Shown here in pieces: positions 1 to 15,450 of a stretch of DNA of 17,031 nucleotides. Within the stretch, counting starts at the first letter, position 1. Each line of letters starts with the position of its first letter. Made by a program: the position numbers and the translations under genes. The DNA is from Candidatus Undinarchaeota archaeon (GTDB lineage: Archaea > SpSt-1190), in contig CAYVAH010000014.1 of the NCBI GenBank assembly GCA_964449215.1, forward strand, positions 1 through 17,031. Direction: 5' to 3'. The notes beneath the pieces are model-generated. The model was given only the letters and a program-made list of their open reading frames with translations. It ran no database searches and was not told the origin of the DNA.

Positions 1-19
1 TTCATACCACCCGGGTGAA

Positions 20-110
20 TCAGCTAGCGAAATTCTCATCACCGAAAGGGGCTGCGCCCCTTTTCAAACCCCCGAGTTTGGGGGGTTTCAGAGTAACTGT
101 GATTCATCCC
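20..110 (-). ncRNA. Box C/D 2'-O-methylation guide sRNA (double guide) with structured insert between D' and C'
   Basis: Minus strand: box C GGGATGA (110-104, one mismatch to RUGAUGA), 12-nt guide ATCACAGTTACT (103-92), box D' CTGA (91-88), 45-nt insert (87-43), box C' GTGATGA (42-36), 12-nt guide GAATTTCGCTAG (35-24), box D CTGA (23-20). The D guide pairs 11 bp with the conserved 23S sequence UAGCGAAAUUC; the D' guide is complementary to the H69 loop GUAACUNUGA. Confidence 0.85.
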
Positions 111-125
111 GAAAAAAGTTGTTGG

Positions 126-878
126 TCAGGGTTTATCAATCTGTGCCTCTCCGAGGTCCCGCCACTCACCGCTGAATATGTACCCGGCGAGCTGGTTTAT
201 GGACGCGAGTTTTGGGAGGACATGCCTCTCCAGGCTTGCGGGACCTTTCGGAATTACTTTGAGAACCTCCGGCTCAATAACGAATGAACCTGCCGATATG
301 AGATAGCTCTCGGACCTTGATGGTTTTTCCCTGAACCCCACCACTCTTGTTCCCCTCATTTCCGGGACGCCGAACTTCTGGGGTTCCTTCCACGTTGTGA
401 GGGCAACAGTTGCCATGACATTCTGGCTGAAGTGGAACCTGTAGAAATCCAGGTAGTCAATGCTCGAGATGGTGTCTCCATATATCAAAAAGAAGCTGTC
501 CTTCAGCAGGTGGGAGGCTTCCCTGAGAGCTCCGCCGGTCCCGGAGCCTTCGTCGTCTATGAACTTGAGTTCCAGTTCCGTTTCGAGCTTTTCCTTCAGG
601 GATCCCGCGTTTTTACCTATGAATACAACGCGCTTGACCCCTACCGGGGCAAGTTTCTCGAGGTGAATGTCCACGGCCCTTTTTCCCCCAAACTCTTTCA
701 ATATGGTGTCTCCGGATCCGGTGAGGATGACTGCGGTTTTTGGCGTGGTTGTCAGGAAGGCCCTTTCGAGGAGCTTTTCAAAAACACCGGAGCGGCTTTC
801 CGATAGGTGTCCCACAAGCCGGTCAGCCCTCTTCAGAAGGCTCTCCTCAAGGGTGAGGCTGATGCGCCTTTTTGTCAT
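126..878 (-). CDS. Ribbon-helix-helix domain fused to a sugar-1-phosphate nucleotidyltransferase-like domain (degenerate active-site signature)
   Basis: N-terminus KRRISLTLEESLLKRADRLV...SRSGVFEKLLE is RHH/CopG-like. The rest has NTP-transferase motifs AVILTG, GTGGAL, YGD, FGV, FREKP, ISAG, SLE, WRDLG. ATG at 878. Confidence 0.85.
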   Translation of the reverse strand: MTKRRISLTLEESLLKRADRLVGHLSESRSGVFEKLLERAFLTTTPKTAVILTGSGDTILKEFGGKRAVDIHLEKLAPVGVKRVVFIGKNAGSLKEKLETELELKFIDDEGSGTGGALREASHLLKDSFFLIYGDTISSIDYLDFYRFHFSQNVMATVALTTWKEPQKFGVPEMRGTRVVGFREKPSRSESYLISAGSFVIEPEVLKVIPKGPASLERHVLPKLASINQLAGYIFSGEWRDLGEAQIDKP

Positions 879-6411: not shown

Positions 6412-9400
6412 TCAGTCTTCCCCATACATCTCGGCACCATGCTGGCTTATCATCCGGCAGTGCATCGCGGTCCTGCTGTTGCCCATATCGAAACCGAGTT
6501 CCGTGTCAGGTTCAGGACGATACAGCGGGTCGCATCCAACCGCATCGAACACATACCTGCCTTCTCCGCTTATGCCATACTCGGTAACGTTTATGGTTTC
6601 TTCATACCAGTTGCCTTCCTCACTGTTGAGGGCTACCCATCCTGTGTCTTCACACATCCCGAACAGGCAGAACAGGTTTCCGACCGCCGGTATTTCCATC
6701 ACCCTGAACTTAACGGTTTCCGGTGCGATTCCCGTTCTATCGTCAAGATACAGCGACACTGGCAGCATTTCGTTGTATACTCCGCCTGTTTGTGGGCTTG
6801 CCACCTCCATGCTGGGTCTGTCATTATCCACCATCATTGTTGTGGATGCCGTCCCTATGTTGAACTGTTCGTCCCGTGCGTGGACCATCAGGTAGTAGTT
6901 GCCGGATTCCAGTCCTTCCGGGAGCGGGCCGTTTATCTCGCAGAGGTTGTAGTCCAGTGCGGTTCCCGGGATATCATATCCGGTGTCCCCACCCGGTTCA
7001 CCCTCATTATCGGTGTAGATGTCGGCCCAGCAGTCATCAAATCCAGACTGGTATTCATCCACTTCAGCCTGCAGGCTCACGGTGTCACCTTCTGTCAGGG
7101 GACCCTCAAGTGTTCCGATATCTGTTATGAACACTCCAGGCCCTTCGTTATCCATGTTCATGGTTATTGGGCTGAGCCACGGGTTCAGTGCCAGCCAGCT
7201 ATACTTGTTGCCCACGTTGTCCACTATATCAACCCACAGAAAGACGGTGTCATTCAAACCGCTATCCTCCGGTATGGTCAGCTCTCCCTTGCAGATTACT
7301 TCATTGCCTTCGACCACTGCGTCAAGTGTCCCGAGCTCGACGACCTTCGGGTTTATGCCCATCTTGTAGAGCTCCTCCAGGTAGTCCCAGAGGTCCTTCA
7401 CGTTGGACTGATTTATTCCCTCAAAGTTGTAGTCCACGGCGTAGAAGGTGCATTGGTCCACACCACTGGCAGGGCAGTCATGGTTGTCGAACATGCAACC
7501 AACCTGATCCAGTATGCAGTCACTCTCGCAAGTGTTGCCCCCAAAGTCGATCACGGGCATATAGACGTAGAAGGGCTTGCCATCCCTGTAATACTGTCCG
7601 GCATGCGGATTCAGCACTTCACCGATCGGTGAGGTGTTGTCAATCAATATTTCCAGTCCGTCTGTCCATTCTGCTTCATTCCCGAGATAGTCAGTGGCTG
7701 TGACCTCGAAGTGCCACCTTCCACATTCTTCATACTGTGCTTCTCTTTCGAAGCAGTAGGCCTGCTCTTCTTCGTCCCAGGGCATTTCCGGGTCGTCAAG
7801 CTCAGAGGTTCTTCCATGGACCGTCCAGACCCCGACTCCCGGGTCGTCCGTCTGCTTCACGTCACGGACACGGGCGCAGAACTTGACCCTGTCGTCACCA
7901 CCAACATAAACATCTCCTTCGTATATGGGTTCCCCGCCATTTACGCGGACATATTTTTCAATCTCTGGCGGTGCAGTATCGACATTATCGACTTCCGTGT
8001 GAATTTCTTCCTTGTTCCCGAACCTGTCCATGCAGTAGTATTGCAGCGTGTGAACAGAGTCCTCGCCAAAGCGGATCGGCCCGTCATATTCCATCCAGCT
8101 TGTGTACCCTTCCCCATCGACATCATACCTGTAGTATATCTTGTAAGCTCCACTCGGGTGCGGATAAACATCCTCACAGTCAAGGGATATGGGTGTATCC
8201 TGGGTTATCCAGTAGTCATATTCATCCTCTCCAATGTACTGGGGTTCACAGACCTCCTTGTCAGTTTCGGGTGGGTCGAGGTCCACGGCATCTGTTTCAA
8301 AGTGGTGTTTCTCTTCATTTCCAAGTGCATCCACACACCAGTATTCTACCTGGTGATAGGACGACTCGTCGAAGCTGATGGGTTCTTCATAGATTGCTGG
8401 TTCTGACCACTCGGTCCACTCCTCCCCATCTCTGCTCCATCTGGTGCTCCAGTACACTGTCACATCATCAACCGGGTGTGGTTCCGGGTCCTCGCAGGTC
8501 AGCACTATCTGTGCTTTATCGTCTATTAGATAGTCCACTCCTTCCTCCGGGCCGGGTATCACGTTTTCACCGATGACATCCTTTTCAGTTTCAGGCGGCT
8601 GCGAATCCACTATATCCAGCTCATAGTGGACCCGCCCGGTGTTCCCGAGCGCATCCACGCAGTAGTAGTAGAGCTCGTGGTAGCTGTCCTCCCCATATGA
8701 GAACGGTCCCGGATATTCCTCCCAGCCTTCCATTGCCGGTTCTCCGTTCACAAAGTACATGTAATAGATGGTCTCGTGGTCAACTGGATGCGGTTCCGGG
8801 TCCTGGCAGTTCAGGTATATGGGCGTTTGCTGTGTGATGTACCAGGCTCCATCATAGACCTCATACTCTCCGGAGGGTTCGTACTGAACTTCCCCTGCAG
8901 GGACCTTCGGGTCACCCAGTTCCTTCTCAACTTCCGGCGGGGTGTCATCTACAAAGACGCACTGCTTTTTCACGTCTTCAACCTTGCCCACGCCATCCAC
9001 ACTGTAATACTCAATAAGGTGACAGCTCTCTTCATCCTTTGTGAACGGTCCCTCATAGACATTCCAGTCCCCGTATCCTTCCGCCTCCTGGCAGAGTTCC
9101 TGGTCCCAGCAGTATCTCTCATCAACCAGGGAGTTCCTCCAGTAGGTGACCCTTATGCCGCTCTCATGCGGTCCTGCGTCATCACTTGCCTCCAGCACAA
9201 CCGAGGTGTTAGTTTTAATCCACTTCGGGTAACCTCTGGAGGGGAACTGCTCGCCTTCGTACCATTTTTCGGTCACAGGTGGGGTTTTATCCACTATGAA
9301 GATTTCCGGGCCATCATAAACTTCATTTCCAAGGGCATCCCAGCACCTGATAAAGAGTGCATGCACGGACTCCTCCGGGAAGTTTATGTCGAATGGTGGT

Positions 9401-11058
9401 GTGGCTTCCCCACCTCCACCGCCTTCGGTGTCCAGCAGCTCATATCTCCACTCACACTCCACGTTATCAACGGGATGCGGTTCGGGGTCCAATGCCTCAA
9501 CATGTATGGCTGTGTTGCCATCAATCTGGCACCATTCCTCACTGTCAGGTTCGGGTGGACAGTCACCAAAATGTTCCCCGACCACAGTCTTTTTGATGAC
9601 CGGCGGGGTGTTGTCCACGGCATGCTCCTGCACATGCAACTGTTCCTTGTTTCCGAGTTTATCGACAGCATACCACCTTATCTCGTGGACTGACTCCCTG
9701 TCGAAGCTGTATTCCACGTGGCCATCCTTGTCCATGCCACTTTCAAGTAAGGTGTCTTCGTATGCTATGCCATCGCCGTCGCTGTCCCACCATATTTCAT
9801 ACCAGAGATAGTCAACCCCCACGGGGCAGTCCTCCGGGAAGTCCTCAGCATCCAAGATAACGGTGGTGCCAACGGTGACATAGTAATTATCCCCCGTGAC
9901 TCTGTCATAGGTTGGTCCATCAAAACTCTTTGTGGTTTTTGGTGGGGTGTCATCTACGTTGTCTATCTGTATGTGATGATGCTCTGTGTTTCCGATAAGG
10001 TCGACGGCCCAGTATGTCAGGTTCCGGCCGCACCCTTCAGGGAGGGTGAACGGCCCGGTGTATGTGTGTATGGTGCCACCATCTATCTGATAGTAAATTT
10101 TGTCCACGCCTATACCGCAAGGATTCCCGTATTCATCAATTTCTTCTGCTGATAGGCTGAACTCTGTGGCGGATGTCACGAACAGATGGCAGTTAAATGG
10201 GTCCTCTTCCTCACAGACAACATATGGCTCTCCCCATTCCTTGGTTGTGACCGGTGGAGCATTGTCTATACCAAACTTGTTGGTGTCTGAGCATTCATTA
10301 CCAGTCCAGTCCTCAGCCCATATACGGACGTTTGAAAATGCACACAAAGTGTAGTTTGGGGAAGGCCAGTAACGTTCATAAAAGCCACTTACGGGGTTGT
10401 AGGTCATTTCATACCTGTATGGCGGGTAATCAGGGGCGAACCACAAACCGAACTGGTCGGACACCTGTGTGGTGACGTTTTTCACACCGCTTCCGGGCCA
10501 CGATTCTGTTGCGACCCCTTTGATGAGTATGCTACCGTAATACCAGATGATGGGGTCATTAGCTGCTGGGTTGATAACCTCCACATCGGGGCATTCATCA
10601 TCATAAAGGTAATTGAGAGTGATCACCACATTTGGTTCATCATCAAAACAGTTTAAGGTGACTGTTGCGTAATCTTCGGTTATTACAGGCGACTCGTCAC
10701 CATCAACGGTGTACCTGTTGAAGAAATAGCTGTCAGCGATATACTGGGCATTGCTTATATTGACAACTGCACCATGGCAGCAGTAGAAAGTTTGCTCGGT
10801 TGTGAATGTTCCGCTTGTCACGGATGTCTCGTTCGGGAACCAGCATTCGCCTTCCAAAACTTCAAAATCGAAGGTTCCACCCTGAGCGGCTTCGGGACTT
10901 GCAGTCACGAGGAGCTCCTTCTCCTCGCACTGGTCGATGGCCCAAGCGCTAGAGCTTACGCTAACAATGATGAGGGACATGAAAAACGCCCGAAGAACAC
11001 CCGAAAGATTCATAATAGGTTGTCCAGTTCGCGAGGCCTGCCCCTTTTTGTATATCAT
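6412..11058 (-). CDS. Giant secreted acidic, Cys-rich protein made of about 12 tandem Ig-like beta-sandwich modules
   Basis: Signal peptide ...RAFFMSLIIVSVSSSAWA; modules start D-x-x-P-P-x-[TVI]-x-K and end H-x-[LIV]-x-Y-[YW]-[CAS]-V-D-x-x-G-N; no C-terminal TM helix. Start is 11058 or 11013. Confidence 0.85.
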   Translation of the reverse strand: MIYKKGQASRTGQPIMNLSGVLRAFFMSLIIVSVSSSAWAIDQCEEKELLVTASPEAAQGGTFDFEVLEGECWFPNETSVTSGTFTTEQTFYCCHGAVVNISNAQYIADSYFFNRYTVDGDESPVITEDYATVTLNCFDDEPNVVITLNYLYDDECPDVEVINPAANDPIIWYYGSILIKGVATESWPGSGVKNVTTQVSDQFGLWFAPDYPPYRYEMTYNPVSGFYERYWPSPNYTLCAFSNVRIWAEDWTGNECSDTNKFGIDNAPPVTTKEWGEPYVVCEEEDPFNCHLFVTSATEFSLSAEEIDEYGNPCGIGVDKIYYQIDGGTIHTYTGPFTLPEGCGRNLTYWAVDLIGNTEHHHIQIDNVDDTPPKTTKSFDGPTYDRVTGDNYYVTVGTTVILDAEDFPEDCPVGVDYLWYEIWWDSDGDGIAYEDTLLESGMDKDGHVEYSFDRESVHEIRWYAVDKLGNKEQLHVQEHAVDNTPPVIKKTVVGEHFGDCPPEPDSEEWCQIDGNTAIHVEALDPEPHPVDNVECEWRYELLDTEGGGGGEATPPFDINFPEESVHALFIRCWDALGNEVYDGPEIFIVDKTPPVTEKWYEGEQFPSRGYPKWIKTNTSVVLEASDDAGPHESGIRVTYWRNSLVDERYCWDQELCQEAEGYGDWNVYEGPFTKDEESCHLIEYYSVDGVGKVEDVKKQCVFVDDTPPEVEKELGDPKVPAGEVQYEPSGEYEVYDGAWYITQQTPIYLNCQDPEPHPVDHETIYYMYFVNGEPAMEGWEEYPGPFSYGEDSYHELYYYCVDALGNTGRVHYELDIVDSQPPETEKDVIGENVIPGPEEGVDYLIDDKAQIVLTCEDPEPHPVDDVTVYWSTRWSRDGEEWTEWSEPAIYEEPISFDESSYHQVEYWCVDALGNEEKHHFETDAVDLDPPETDKEVCEPQYIGEDEYDYWITQDTPISLDCEDVYPHPSGAYKIYYRYDVDGEGYTSWMEYDGPIRFGEDSVHTLQYYCMDRFGNKEEIHTEVDNVDTAPPEIEKYVRVNGGEPIYEGDVYVGGDDRVKFCARVRDVKQTDDPGVGVWTVHGRTSELDDPEMPWDEEEQAYCFEREAQYEECGRWHFEVTATDYLGNEAEWTDGLEILIDNTSPIGEVLNPHAGQYYRDGKPFYVYMPVIDFGGNTCESDCILDQVGCMFDNHDCPASGVDQCTFYAVDYNFEGINQSNVKDLWDYLEELYKMGINPKVVELGTLDAVVEGNEVICKGELTIPEDSGLNDTVFLWVDIVDNVGNKYSWLALNPWLSPITMNMDNEGPGVFITDIGTLEGPLTEGDTVSLQAEVDEYQSGFDDCWADIYTDNEGEPGGDTGYDIPGTALDYNLCEINGPLPEGLESGNYYLMVHARDEQFNIGTASTTMMVDNDRPSMEVASPQTGGVYNEMLPVSLYLDDRTGIAPETVKFRVMEIPAVGNLFCLFGMCEDTGWVALNSEEGNWYEETINVTEYGISGEGRYVFDAVGCDPLYRPEPDTELGFDMGNSRTAMHCRMISQHGAEMYGED
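7981..10266 (-). repeat. Seven closely related ~110-aa tandem modules within the giant protein
   Basis: Module starts DNAPP, DDTPP, DNTPP, DKTPP, DDTPP, DSQPP, DLDPP (next is DTAPP at 7980). The peptide DPEPHPVD recurs at 8467-8490, 8779-8802 and 9466-9489 with synonymous changes. Confidence 0.85.
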
Positions 11059-14541: not shown

Positions 14542-14845
14542 AAAGAGATGCTGGGTTGGGGGGATGCCCCGGGTGAGATATTTCAAGCCCCAGGGTATCC
14601 CTGTTTCTTCTTTACAAGAGGTGGTGCTGACTGTGGAGGAGCACGAAGCGTTGAAGCTCGCTGATCTGCAGGGTTTGCCACAGAAAGAAGCGGCGGAGAA
14701 GATGGGAATTTCACAGCCCACATTTTACCGGTTGTTGAAGTCGGCACGCAGCAAGGCTTCCATGGCCATAATAGAGGGGAAGGCCATCCGCATAGAAGGG
14801 GGGAGCTACGTTGTGGGTGGCAGGGGCAGAAGGATGCGGGGCTAG
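14528..14845 (+). CDS. DUF134 (UPF0251) predicted HTH DNA-binding protein
   Basis: MPRRRKRC...YFKPQG...LTVEEHEALKLADLQGLPQKEAAEKMGISQPTFYRLLKSARSK...IIEGKAIRIEGG. Confidence 0.92.
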   Translation: MPRRRKRCWVGGMPRVRYFKPQGIPVSSLQEVVLTVEEHEALKLADLQGLPQKEAAEKMGISQPTFYRLLKSARSKASMAIIEGKAIRIEGGSYVVGGRGRRMRG

Positions 14846-15450
14846 TGTTGCGGGGAGGGCGGTGCCGTGGCGGTATCCAGGTGGTTTCTGTAATGTGCCA
14901 GTAGCCTGTATAGCTGCTGCTCCACCGTGATTTTTCCCTTGTATTTTCGAAGCATTTTCTTGATCTCCCTGTGGATTTTCTCCTTTTTGTTTCCCCCGAC
15001 GGCCTGGTAAATGTCCAGAAGGTTCCTGGAGCTCGCATACCAGCGGTGGTCCCTCTCCTCCTCAAGGTGTTTTTTCAGGTGCTCCAGCACCTCTTCCTTG
15101 CTATGTCTTTCCGCTATTCGGGATACCCAGCGCCGGTAGAACTCCTTCAGTTCCTTTCTGTTCATCTGCAATTTGTGTATGAAAAAGCGGGTGTTGTGCC
15201 AGGCGCACCGCTCTTCAGACAGCCCGTTGCATGTTGTGGGGGTCCTGAAGCCATCATCACAATACTTCTTGAATGGGTCCTCCGCAGAGAGGTCCACTGA
15301 AAAATAAGGACAGGTGATCCCTGCTTTGTATATGACATAATCAAGTTCGGGTCCCCCGAGGAACGGGTGGTTGCTGTAGAGCCAGAGTAGCTTCTCGTCC
15401 CGTGGTCCCTCTCGTCGCTTCAGCTCTTTTGCGATTGCGTCCAGTTCCAC
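14842..15450 (-). CDS. Hypothetical protein with four Cys and a charged helical C-terminus
   Basis: 202-aa ORF fills the gap, K/E/R-rich like its neighbours; TTTTATT (15477-15471) lies about 20 nt before GTG 15450; stop overlaps the DUF134 stop (CTAG). Confidence 0.7.
   Translation of the reverse strand: MELDAIAKELKRREGPRDEKLLWLYSNHPFLGGPELDYVIYKAGITCPYFSVDLSAEDPFKKYCDDGFRTPTTCNGLSEERCAWHNTRFFIHKLQMNRKELKEFYRRWVSRIAERHSKEEVLEHLKKHLEEERDHRWYASSRNLLDIYQAVGGNKKEKIHREIKKMLRKYKGKITVEQQLYRLLAHYRNHLDTATAPPSPQH

What the first reader, a model, noticed from the sequence alone, without database searches (positions are those of the whole stretch)
43..87. 45-nt twin-hairpin domain in place of the C'/D' K-loop
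Seen: between D' and C' lies AACCCCC-CAAACTC-GGGGGTT-TGA-AAAGGGGC-GCA-GCCCCTTT-CG, two strong GC hairpins, closed by a well-formed C'/D' kink motif (CUCUGA with UGAUGAG). Established: archaeal C/D sRNAs are usually about 50-60 nt with only a short loop here. Inference: this ~91-nt RNA has an extra domain forming a three-way junction. It may be a protein-binding or rRNA-chaperone module, or a captured REP/MITE-like element (GGGGGTTTG..GGGGCGCAGCCCC resembles dispersed palindromic repeats) that was domesticated in, or seeded, the guide RNA.
Basis: partly seen in the sequence, partly recalled or inferred. Interest (0 to 1): 0.7.

Follow-up and report, generated by a model that had tools for sequence, protein, structure and literature searches.

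The report
Mobile hairpin cassette inside guide RNA
A small RNA gene of an uncultured archaeon, predicted to guide methylation of two sites in the ribosome, carries in its middle loop a 45-base twin hairpin whose 3' part is a repeated DNA cassette also found behind tRNA genes; relatives have a short loop or a different insert there, so it is likely a tolerated insertion rather than a conserved domain.

Summary
On the minus strand, 110-20 is a box C/D RNA gene with two 12-nt guides and a 45-nt twin hairpin (87-43) between D' and C'. The D' guide pairs with this genome's own 23S helix 69; the D guide likely targets the adjacent helix 70/71 segment.

The insert is not conserved. Orthologues at the same locus have loops of 8, 14, 39, 45 or 87 nt, and the 87-nt one is a different sequence. 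Its 3' part is a dispersed cassette: 5 copies in this genome, all in or behind stable-RNA genes. Six of 14 copies outside C/D RNAs carry 18-27-nt target duplications. A second C/D RNA here holds the whole 89-nt cassette. In the family, 4 of 53 C/D RNAs have loops over 25 nt, all built from these repeats, at the same two loci in two non-sister genera.

The junction has k-junction topology, and the cassette adds a decoy D'-like UUGA; both are untested. No mobilising enzyme was found. This scan has already noted repeat-filled C/D loops in other genomes.

The parts
104..110 (-). box C (GGGATGA, one mismatch)
   Evidence: sequence; orthologues have the consensus box here
92..103 (-). D' guide, 12 nt, complementary to 23S helix 69; predicted target is the second A of the loop (E. 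coli A1913, numbering recalled)
   Evidence: 11 bp with one G-U to G000:C5, target at 25679; 3 of 300 shuffled guides score as well
88..91 (-). box D' (CTGA)
   Evidence: invariant in 5 of 5 aligned locus orthologues
67..87 (-). hairpin 1 of the insert (7 bp, 7-nt loop); the right arm is cassette sequence; would be the third (T) helix of a k-junction
   Evidence: shortened on both arms in strain L046
64..67 (-). UUGA in the cassette: a D'-like decoy that could form a canonical K-turn with C', using hairpin 2 as its stem
   Evidence: pair listing; not tested by experiment
45..63 (-). hairpin 2 (8 bp, GCA loop): the cassette's terminal G-rich hairpin
46..72 (-). core shared with the dispersed cassette: copies at G000 C5:10488 (inside a second C/D RNA), C19:9904, C30:2501 and C46:97 (behind tRNA genes)
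36..42 (-). box C' (GTGATGA)
24..35 (-). D guide, 12 nt; likely targets the C in the 23S helix 70/71 segment (E. coli C1934, numbering recalled)
   Evidence: own 23S is cut off just before the site; relatives' 23S gives 9 contiguous bp; rival 11-bp match in own 16S-23S spacer
20..23 (-). box D (CTGA)
126..878 (-). nucleotidyl transferase gene ending 15 nt upstream of box C on the same strand; likely the co-transcribed host gene, and the synteny marker
   Evidence: (PF00483)

Best explanation
This is a double-guide box C/D RNA gene, predicted to direct ribose methylation at two neighbouring 23S sites, whose D'-C' loop holds the 3' half of a small gene-less hairpin cassette that likely inserted there and is likely tolerated rather than needed. 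Shown: boxes, guides, complementarity to own helix 69, cassette copies at tRNA ends, target duplications at other copies, short-loop orthologues. Inferred steps: (1) cassettes move at stable-RNA genes by an unknown, trans-acting route that often copies 18-27 nt of the target; (2) inside a C/D RNA only the D'-C' loop can take extra sequence without changing guide spacing, so insertions survive there; (3) a full cassette like the 89-nt one in the C5 RNA eroded to 45 nt here and 39 nt in a strain, while copying between the two RNA genes kept their 3' ends alike; (4) the folded insert stays out of the way of the guides, so L7Ae, Nop5 and fibrillarin still assemble.
For: Cassette: 5 of 5 copies in G000 lie in or just 3' of stable-RNA genes on the same strand. 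One search placed 4 of 5; the fifth, C46, begins with the tRNA-Gly end that overlaps C44. About 1.6% of the genome lies in such zones. 16 places in 7 of 10 family genomes, 0 in 7 other class genomes, reversed control 0. Duplications of 18-27 nt at 6 of 14 non-C/D copies versus 1 of 150 random sites. Full architecture (AT-rich clamp, linker, G-rich hairpin, often a duplication) at 6 distinct places including the C5 RNA. Orthologues beside the same gene have loops of 8 (G004), 14 (L049), 39 (L046), 45 (L051) and 87 nt (G009). Census of 53 RNAs: 37 loops up to 10 nt, 12 of 11-25, 4 over 25. G000 and G009 are not sisters, and G003 and G007 between them have 22 and 13 nt at the second locus. Against strain L046: 0 changes in 46 nt of boxes and guides, 7 changed positions in the insert, 21 of 162 third codon positions changed. 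Fibrillarin, Nop5 and an L7Ae-family gene are present. This is the only helix-69 guide of its type in the assembly.
Against: No 18-27-nt duplication flanks either C/D copy (best 9 and 11 nt), so direct insertion into the loop is inferred. 8 of 14 other copies also lack one. No mobiliser was found. The 28-nt cassette core is unchanged between strains (chance about 0.02 at the third-position rate), and hairpin 1 lost one pair from both arms, which hints at constraint. L7Ae did not fold two tested k-junctions (PMC10573300), so tolerance of this topology is not a given. That the same two loci are filled in two genera (about 1 in 15 by chance) may mean one old insertion with later turnover, or a benefit. 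No expression data are in hand.
Confidence: 0.7

Rival explanations
1. The insert began as a cassette but has been domesticated: hairpins 1 and 2 form a k-junction on C'/D' that stabilises the RNA, tunes activity or binds a partner.
For: The topology matches the k-junction definition, a third helix on the non-bulged strand (PMC4005666; pairs). The near strain keeps both hairpins with a two-armed shortening. The same two RNAs are long in G000 and G009. G009's inserts close with 8 and 5 pairs directly on the true D'.
Against: Sequence and fold differ between G000 and G009 (no insert pair across genomes scored 30 in local alignment). 49 of 53 family RNAs manage with 25 nt or less. The two double-sided changes in hairpin 2 come from copies outside C/D RNAs.
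Confidence: 0.13
2. The insert partly cripples or switches the RNA: L7Ae binds a decoy K-turn formed by the cassette's UUGA, hairpin 2 and C', so the helix-69 guide is out of register in that fold and only the D guide works reliably.
For: The decoy has a 7-8-bp canonical stem in the window, in L046 (3-nt bulge) and in the C5 RNA, against 0-2 bp for the true D'. Opening two A-U pairs of hairpin 1 costs only 1.6 kcal/mol. L7Ae did not fold tested k-junctions. Both C/D copies read TTTGA where most other copies read TTTAGA.
Against: The true D' gives the stronger non-canonical stem (C-G, U-A, C-G versus U-G, U-A). The D' guide and box are unchanged between strains and identical to G004 and L049. 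One tRNA-linked copy in G002 also reads TTTGA, and the two C/D copies are not independent.
Confidence: 0.12
3. There is no single long RNA: either two separate half-RNAs with an intergenic spacer, an insert removed during maturation, or an assembly error at a contig end.
For: 15 of 30 long-spacer loci inspected in other archaea were tandem RNAs read across their spacer. The element lies 20 nt from a contig end.
Against: No partner half lies upstream or downstream. The same two guides form one short RNA in G004 and L049. Contigs of 3 of 4 laid runs span the element without a joint; the fourth does not cover it. I saw no bulge-helix-bulge at the insert ends (by eye only).
Confidence: 0.05

Closest known systems
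Archaeal double-guide box C/D sRNAs targeting 23S helices 68-71 (PMC4644070, PMC6009581, PMC7994747; passages read)
   Same: C, D', C', D boxes; two 12-nt guides; N+5 rule; two targets close together at a known methylation hotspot near E. coli A1912; gene directly behind a protein gene.
   Different: 91 nt instead of about 50; the K-loop is replaced by two helices derived from a dispersed repeat.
MITE-like sRNA elements of Pyrobaculum calidifontis (PMC6009581; passages read)
   Same: A non-coding mobile-type repeat tied to C/D RNA genes, proposed to help shuffle their modules.
   Different: There the inverted repeats flank a degenerate sRNA-like body. Here the repeat sits inside an intact, conserved guide RNA and its other copies lie behind tRNA genes.
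k-junction (PMC4005666, PMC10573300; passages read)
   Same: Tandem G.A pairs, a bulged strand, and a third helix on the non-bulged strand.
   Different: The passages name riboswitches, rRNA and DUF-3268, not a box C'/D' motif; two tested k-junctions were not folded by L7Ae, which this site has to bind.
Mitochondrial double-hairpin and repetitive hairpin elements, yeast GC clusters (PMC2800124, PMC4478555; passages read; the Allomyces paper seen only as a reference)
   Same: Short, gene-less, GC-rich, modular palindromes of uncertain mobility route that stay in transcripts and are absent from structurally important parts of genes.
   Different: Organellar; no homology tested; long target duplications at tRNA ends are not described in the passages read.
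REP/BIME repeats with RAYT, and tRNA-targeted integrative elements (recalled, not read here)
   Same: Mosaic palindromic modules with GNA-type loops; duplication of tRNA 3' ends.
   Different: No Y1 transposase in G000 and no tyrosine recombinase in 5 genomes; cargo under 100 bp; duplications also at non-tRNA sites.

Membership tests
Archaeal box C/D guide sRNA | Boxes C, D', C', D in order with 10-12-nt guides | tested here: met
   one mismatch in box C
Archaeal box C/D guide sRNA | Guide pairs 9 or more nt with rRNA or tRNA, Watson-Crick at the fifth position | tested here: met
   D' guide 11 bp (one G-U) to own 23S helix 69
Archaeal box C/D guide sRNA | Second guide has a target | tested here: inconclusive
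   own 23S truncated at the site; 9 bp with relatives' 23S; 11-bp rival in own spacer
Archaeal box C/D guide sRNA | L7Ae, Nop5 and fibrillarin encoded | tested here: met
Archaeal box C/D guide sRNA | Short K-loop between D' and C' | tested here: not met
   45-nt two-helix insert; typical rather than obligatory, since family loops run 3-89 nt
Archaeal box C/D guide sRNA | Expressed, bound by L7Ae, directs methylation | not testable with these tools
   no RNA run listed
MITE | Terminal inverted repeats bounding the element | tested here: not met
   full cassettes have different 5' and 3' modules (read by eye)
MITE | Fixed short target duplication and a cognate DDE transposase | tested here: inconclusive
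   duplications 18-27 nt and variable; DDE families not searched
REP/BIME with RAYT | Y1 HUH transposase in the genome | tested here: not met
   PF01797: 0 of 1 genome, 95% complete
REP/BIME with RAYT | Many dispersed palindromes in mosaics | tested here: met
   clamp module at 84 places in 10 of 10 family genomes, control 0; mosaics at tRNA ends
k-junction | Third helix on the non-bulged strand of a K-turn with tandem G.A pairs | tested here: met
   secondary structure only
k-junction | Folded geometry: third helix stacked on the C helix, cross-strand hydrogen bonds | not testable with these tools
   needs FRET, probing or a structure

The most novel reading that the evidence does not exclude
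Hairpin cassettes that colonise stable-RNA genes in tiny archaea remodel guide RNAs from inside. They turn the C'/D' K-loop into a k-junction with a built-in decoy D' box, giving a guide that can switch its helix-69 activity, and shared cassette ends act as recombination handles that swap guide halves between RNA genes.
Probability: 0.15. Interest if true: 0.78.

Novelty: new variant of a known kind. Interest (0 to 1): 0.48.

Why it matters
It gives natural filled and empty versions of one guide RNA, so two questions become directly testable. First, how much structure the archaeal C'/D' site can carry and still bind L7Ae, given that published k-junctions were not folded by L7Ae. Second, whether small repeats help reshuffle guide halves. 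It also explains why Rfam misses such RNAs. The cassette family has no identified mobiliser, and my paper searches found no description of it; this scan has already noted it in other genomes.

Tried and rejected
Rfam: no match. H/ACA RNA, hammerhead ribozyme or riboswitch: considered by eye and dropped once both guides matched neighbouring 23S sites.

Tandem half-RNAs: no partner halves.

Mobiliser searches: Y1 transposase 0 of 1 genome; Cas1, tyrosine recombinase and reverse transcriptase each 0 of 5; TnpB 0 of 5 over cut-off, with weak hits in 2. These are incomplete assemblies. DDE, IS110, HNH and GIY-YIG families were not searched.

Viral contigs: 2 matches to the G-rich hairpin and 26 to the clamp. 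None of the 26 lay near a tRNA or had the G-rich hairpin downstream. I read ORFs only at the first two and saw no obvious mobiliser.

Expression: no RNA holder listed, which is no evidence either way. Run X5 did not cover the element.

Lineage: a GluRS search returned one distant record and did not place the organism. The sigma-70-type promoter and terminator scan found nothing at the RNA and does not suit archaea.

D-guide target: no family genome gave an uninterrupted 23S site.

The GNA loop of hairpin 2 was partly built into my search pattern, so its conservation is weak evidence. Target duplication of a whole C-guide-D half was considered and rejected, because the two guides are unrelated.

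Papers: searches listed no paper whose title or abstract start describes a repeat inside an archaeal D'-C' loop; the library lacks most subscription papers. PMC1289080 and PMC2802039 are not held. No supplements were read; the sRNA tables of PMC4644070 and PMC6009581 may list long-loop RNAs.

Full report
WHAT IS THERE. The element is on the minus strand at the start of contig C14 of a 788-kb, 95% complete archaeal assembly. Runs holding it are hydrothermal-vent and sediment metagenomes. A DPANN placement comes from earlier scan notes and from Atlas neighbours of the adjacent protein; I did not test it. Read 5' to 3': box C 110-104, 12-nt guide, D' 91-88, 45-nt insert 87-43, C' 42-36, 12-nt guide, D 23-20. 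It starts 15 nt after a nucleotidyl transferase gene on the same strand. A four-box scan finds 7 distinct RNAs in the genome with loops of 3, 3, 3, 10, 14, 45 and 89 nt; Markov controls gave 0, 0 and 1 matches. Rfam misses it.

THE GUIDES. The D' guide pairs over 11 bp (one G-U) with this genome's own 23S at C5:25679, in the helix-69 loop; 3 of 300 shuffled guides do as well. By the fifth-nucleotide rule the target is the second loop A, E. coli A1913 (numbering recalled). Helices 68-71 are reported methylation hotspots, densest around A1912 (PMC4644070, passages). Own 23S ends at the contig edge just before the likely D-guide site. In G010, G016 and the exon junction of G001 the site reads so that the guide makes 9 contiguous pairs centred on C1934 (recalled numbering); G011, G013 and G015 differ by one base inside it. 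A rival 11-bp match lies in own 16S-23S spacer (7 of 300 shuffles). Fibrillarin, Nop5 and an L7Ae-family gene are present. Against strain L046 there are 0 changes in 46 nt of boxes and guides while 21 of 162 third codon positions next door differ (P about 0.002 at that rate, 0.09 at the overall coding rate).

THE INSERT IS NOT CONSERVED. RNAs with the same D' guide beside the same gene have loops of 45 (L051), 39 (L046), 14 (L049), 8 (G004) and 87 nt (G009); the first four also share the D guide. Of 9 metagenome matches to the D' half, 6 have 3-nt loops, mostly at other loci and with other D guides. G009's insert is a different sequence. For the family census I paired the perfect halves and added pairs with one imperfect box. 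One search covered 27 fetched regions, not every unpaired half; 9 gave no pair, and I left out one 118-nt pairing whose second half already had a short partner, and one 126-nt G000 match judged chance. Result: 53 RNAs in 10 genomes, 37 loops up to 10 nt, 12 of 11-25, 4 over 25. The four are G000's 45 and 89 and G009's 87 and 78, at the same two loci. An RpoB tree places G003 and G007 between G000 and G009 (support 96/91 and 97/98), and they have 22 and 13 nt at the second locus. In 401 archaeal genomes a strict long-loop pattern matched 31, control 0. Of 30 loci inspected I judged 15 tandem RNAs, 6 doubtful and 9 plausible single RNAs with loops of 25 nt or more. Long loops are therefore uncommon but not unique; the pattern misses both G000 cases.

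THE INSERT IS A PIECE OF A CASSETTE. Window 72-46 recurs at C5:10488, C19:9904, C30:2501 and C46:97. C5 is inside the second long C/D RNA (36 of 38 nt identical, running into box C'); the others follow tRNA-Gly, tRNA-Thr and tRNA-Gly ends on the same strand. The motif occurs at 16 places in 7 of 10 family genomes and in none of 7 other class genomes. Six of 14 copies outside C/D RNAs are followed by an 18-27-nt copy of the sequence upstream, against 1 of 150 random sites; the C/D copies have none. A second module, an AT-rich clamp, occurs at 84 places in 10 of 10 family genomes; of 30 loci fetched, 21 were tRNA-linked and 2 C/D-linked. Clamp plus G-rich hairpin makes the full cassette, seen at 6 distinct places including the C5 loop. 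The window's insert is its 3' half. Both G009 inserts contain the clamp in reverse orientation and share their C'-proximal ends with each other. Hairpin 2 pairs in 99% of cells over 15 distinct copies, with 2 double-sided changes (10 of 500 shuffles; copies were chosen by a pattern, so this leans high), both from copies outside C/D RNAs. The pairing belongs to the cassette. No Y1 transposase, Cas1, tyrosine recombinase, reverse transcriptase or TnpB over cut-off was found in G000.

HOW IT MOST LIKELY WORKS. Shown: the anatomy, targets on paper, cassette origin and loop lability. Inferred: cassettes land at stable-RNA genes; inside a C/D RNA only the D'-C' loop accepts them; they then erode, and copying between RNA genes keeps their ends alike within a genome. 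The RNA would go on guiding both methylations with the hairpins looped out (0.7). This parallels mitochondrial hairpin elements, which stay in transcripts and are absent from structurally important parts (PMC2800124, passages).

WHAT IS STRUCTURALLY ODD. The true D' has a good non-canonical stem but no canonical stem. Hairpin 1 sits on the non-bulged strand and hairpin 2 precedes the bulge, which is the k-junction topology (PMC4005666, passages). L7Ae did not fold two tested k-junctions (PMC10573300, passages). The cassette also brings UUGA at 67-64, which with hairpin 2 and C' makes a K-turn with a 7-8-bp stem in the window, L046 and the C5 RNA. G009's inserts instead close properly on the true D'. 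Whether G000's D' guide works fully is thus an open, testable question (rivals at 0.13 and 0.12).

RESULTS AGAINST MY READING. No duplication flanks the C/D copies. The cassette core is unchanged between strains (P about 0.02), and hairpin 1 shortened on both arms. The same two loci are filled in two genera (about 1 in 15 by chance). Guide halves are shuffled widely in the family, five partners for the helix-69 guide, but mostly in RNAs with 3-nt loops, so shuffling does not need a cassette.

NOVELTY. The RNA is a member of a known class on sequence criteria; the cassette is not a MITE or REP by the features tested. My searches found no paper on repeats inside archaeal D'-C' loops (titles and abstract starts only). 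The closest is the P. calidifontis MITE-like sRNA (PMC6009581, passages). This scan has already reported repeat-filled C/D loops and tRNA-end cassettes in other genomes; those notes are unchecked and not counted as evidence. What this locus adds is filled and empty orthologues, parallel filling of two loci, and the k-junction versus decoy test. Verdict: real, a new variant of a known kind, interest 0.48.

Noticed in passing
G000:C5:25697 and L030 (G001 23S): Own 23S breaks off at the contig end exactly where G001 has a 289-nt insertion that looks like a group I intron (exon ends in U, insert ends in G). The D guide would span that exon junction.
   Followed up: partly
window 20-110 versus L003 and L005: The RNA gene follows the nucleotidyl transferase gene on the same strand in G000 and L049, but faces it on the opposite strand in G004 and G009: an inversion in place.
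   Followed up: no
window 10-21 and 101-112: The 3' flank can pair with box C and the start of the guide (-14.2, -8.5 and -11.3 kcal/mol in G000, L049 and G004, with different sequences). It may be a precursor duplex or related to the inversion.
   Followed up: partly
window 44 and 111: Strain L046 lacks the same single base before box C' and before box C, so the two sites match each other within each strain; this suggests copying between them.
   Followed up: no
window 1-5, L046 and L051: The two strains have different genes directly downstream of the RNA, with the switch at the window's first base, which may be why the contig ends here.
   Followed up: partly
G000:C5:10408-10540: Second C/D RNA with an 89-nt full cassette in its loop and more modules after box D; its D guide fits the anticodon C of tRNA-Met at C12:735-813.
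   Followed up: partly
G000 tRNA genes on C2, C3, C10, C12, C19, C27, C31, C36, C43, C44: Many tRNA genes are followed by mosaics of hairpin modules, and several contig ends and gaps fall in them.
   Followed up: partly
L106, L107, L211-L236: Both cassette modules also occur in viral contigs, several labelled as giant-virus bins, sometimes in tandem and without tRNA linkage.
   Followed up: partly
L079 (G219:C2): An archaeon outside this class has a 69-nt structured D'-C' loop and a clamp-like hairpin after box D.
   Followed up: no
window 6412-11058 (-) and 14842-15450 (-): A 1,548-aa acidic, cysteine-rich repeat protein with a likely signal peptide (not scanned), and a 202-aa ORF without a Pfam match.
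   Followed up: no
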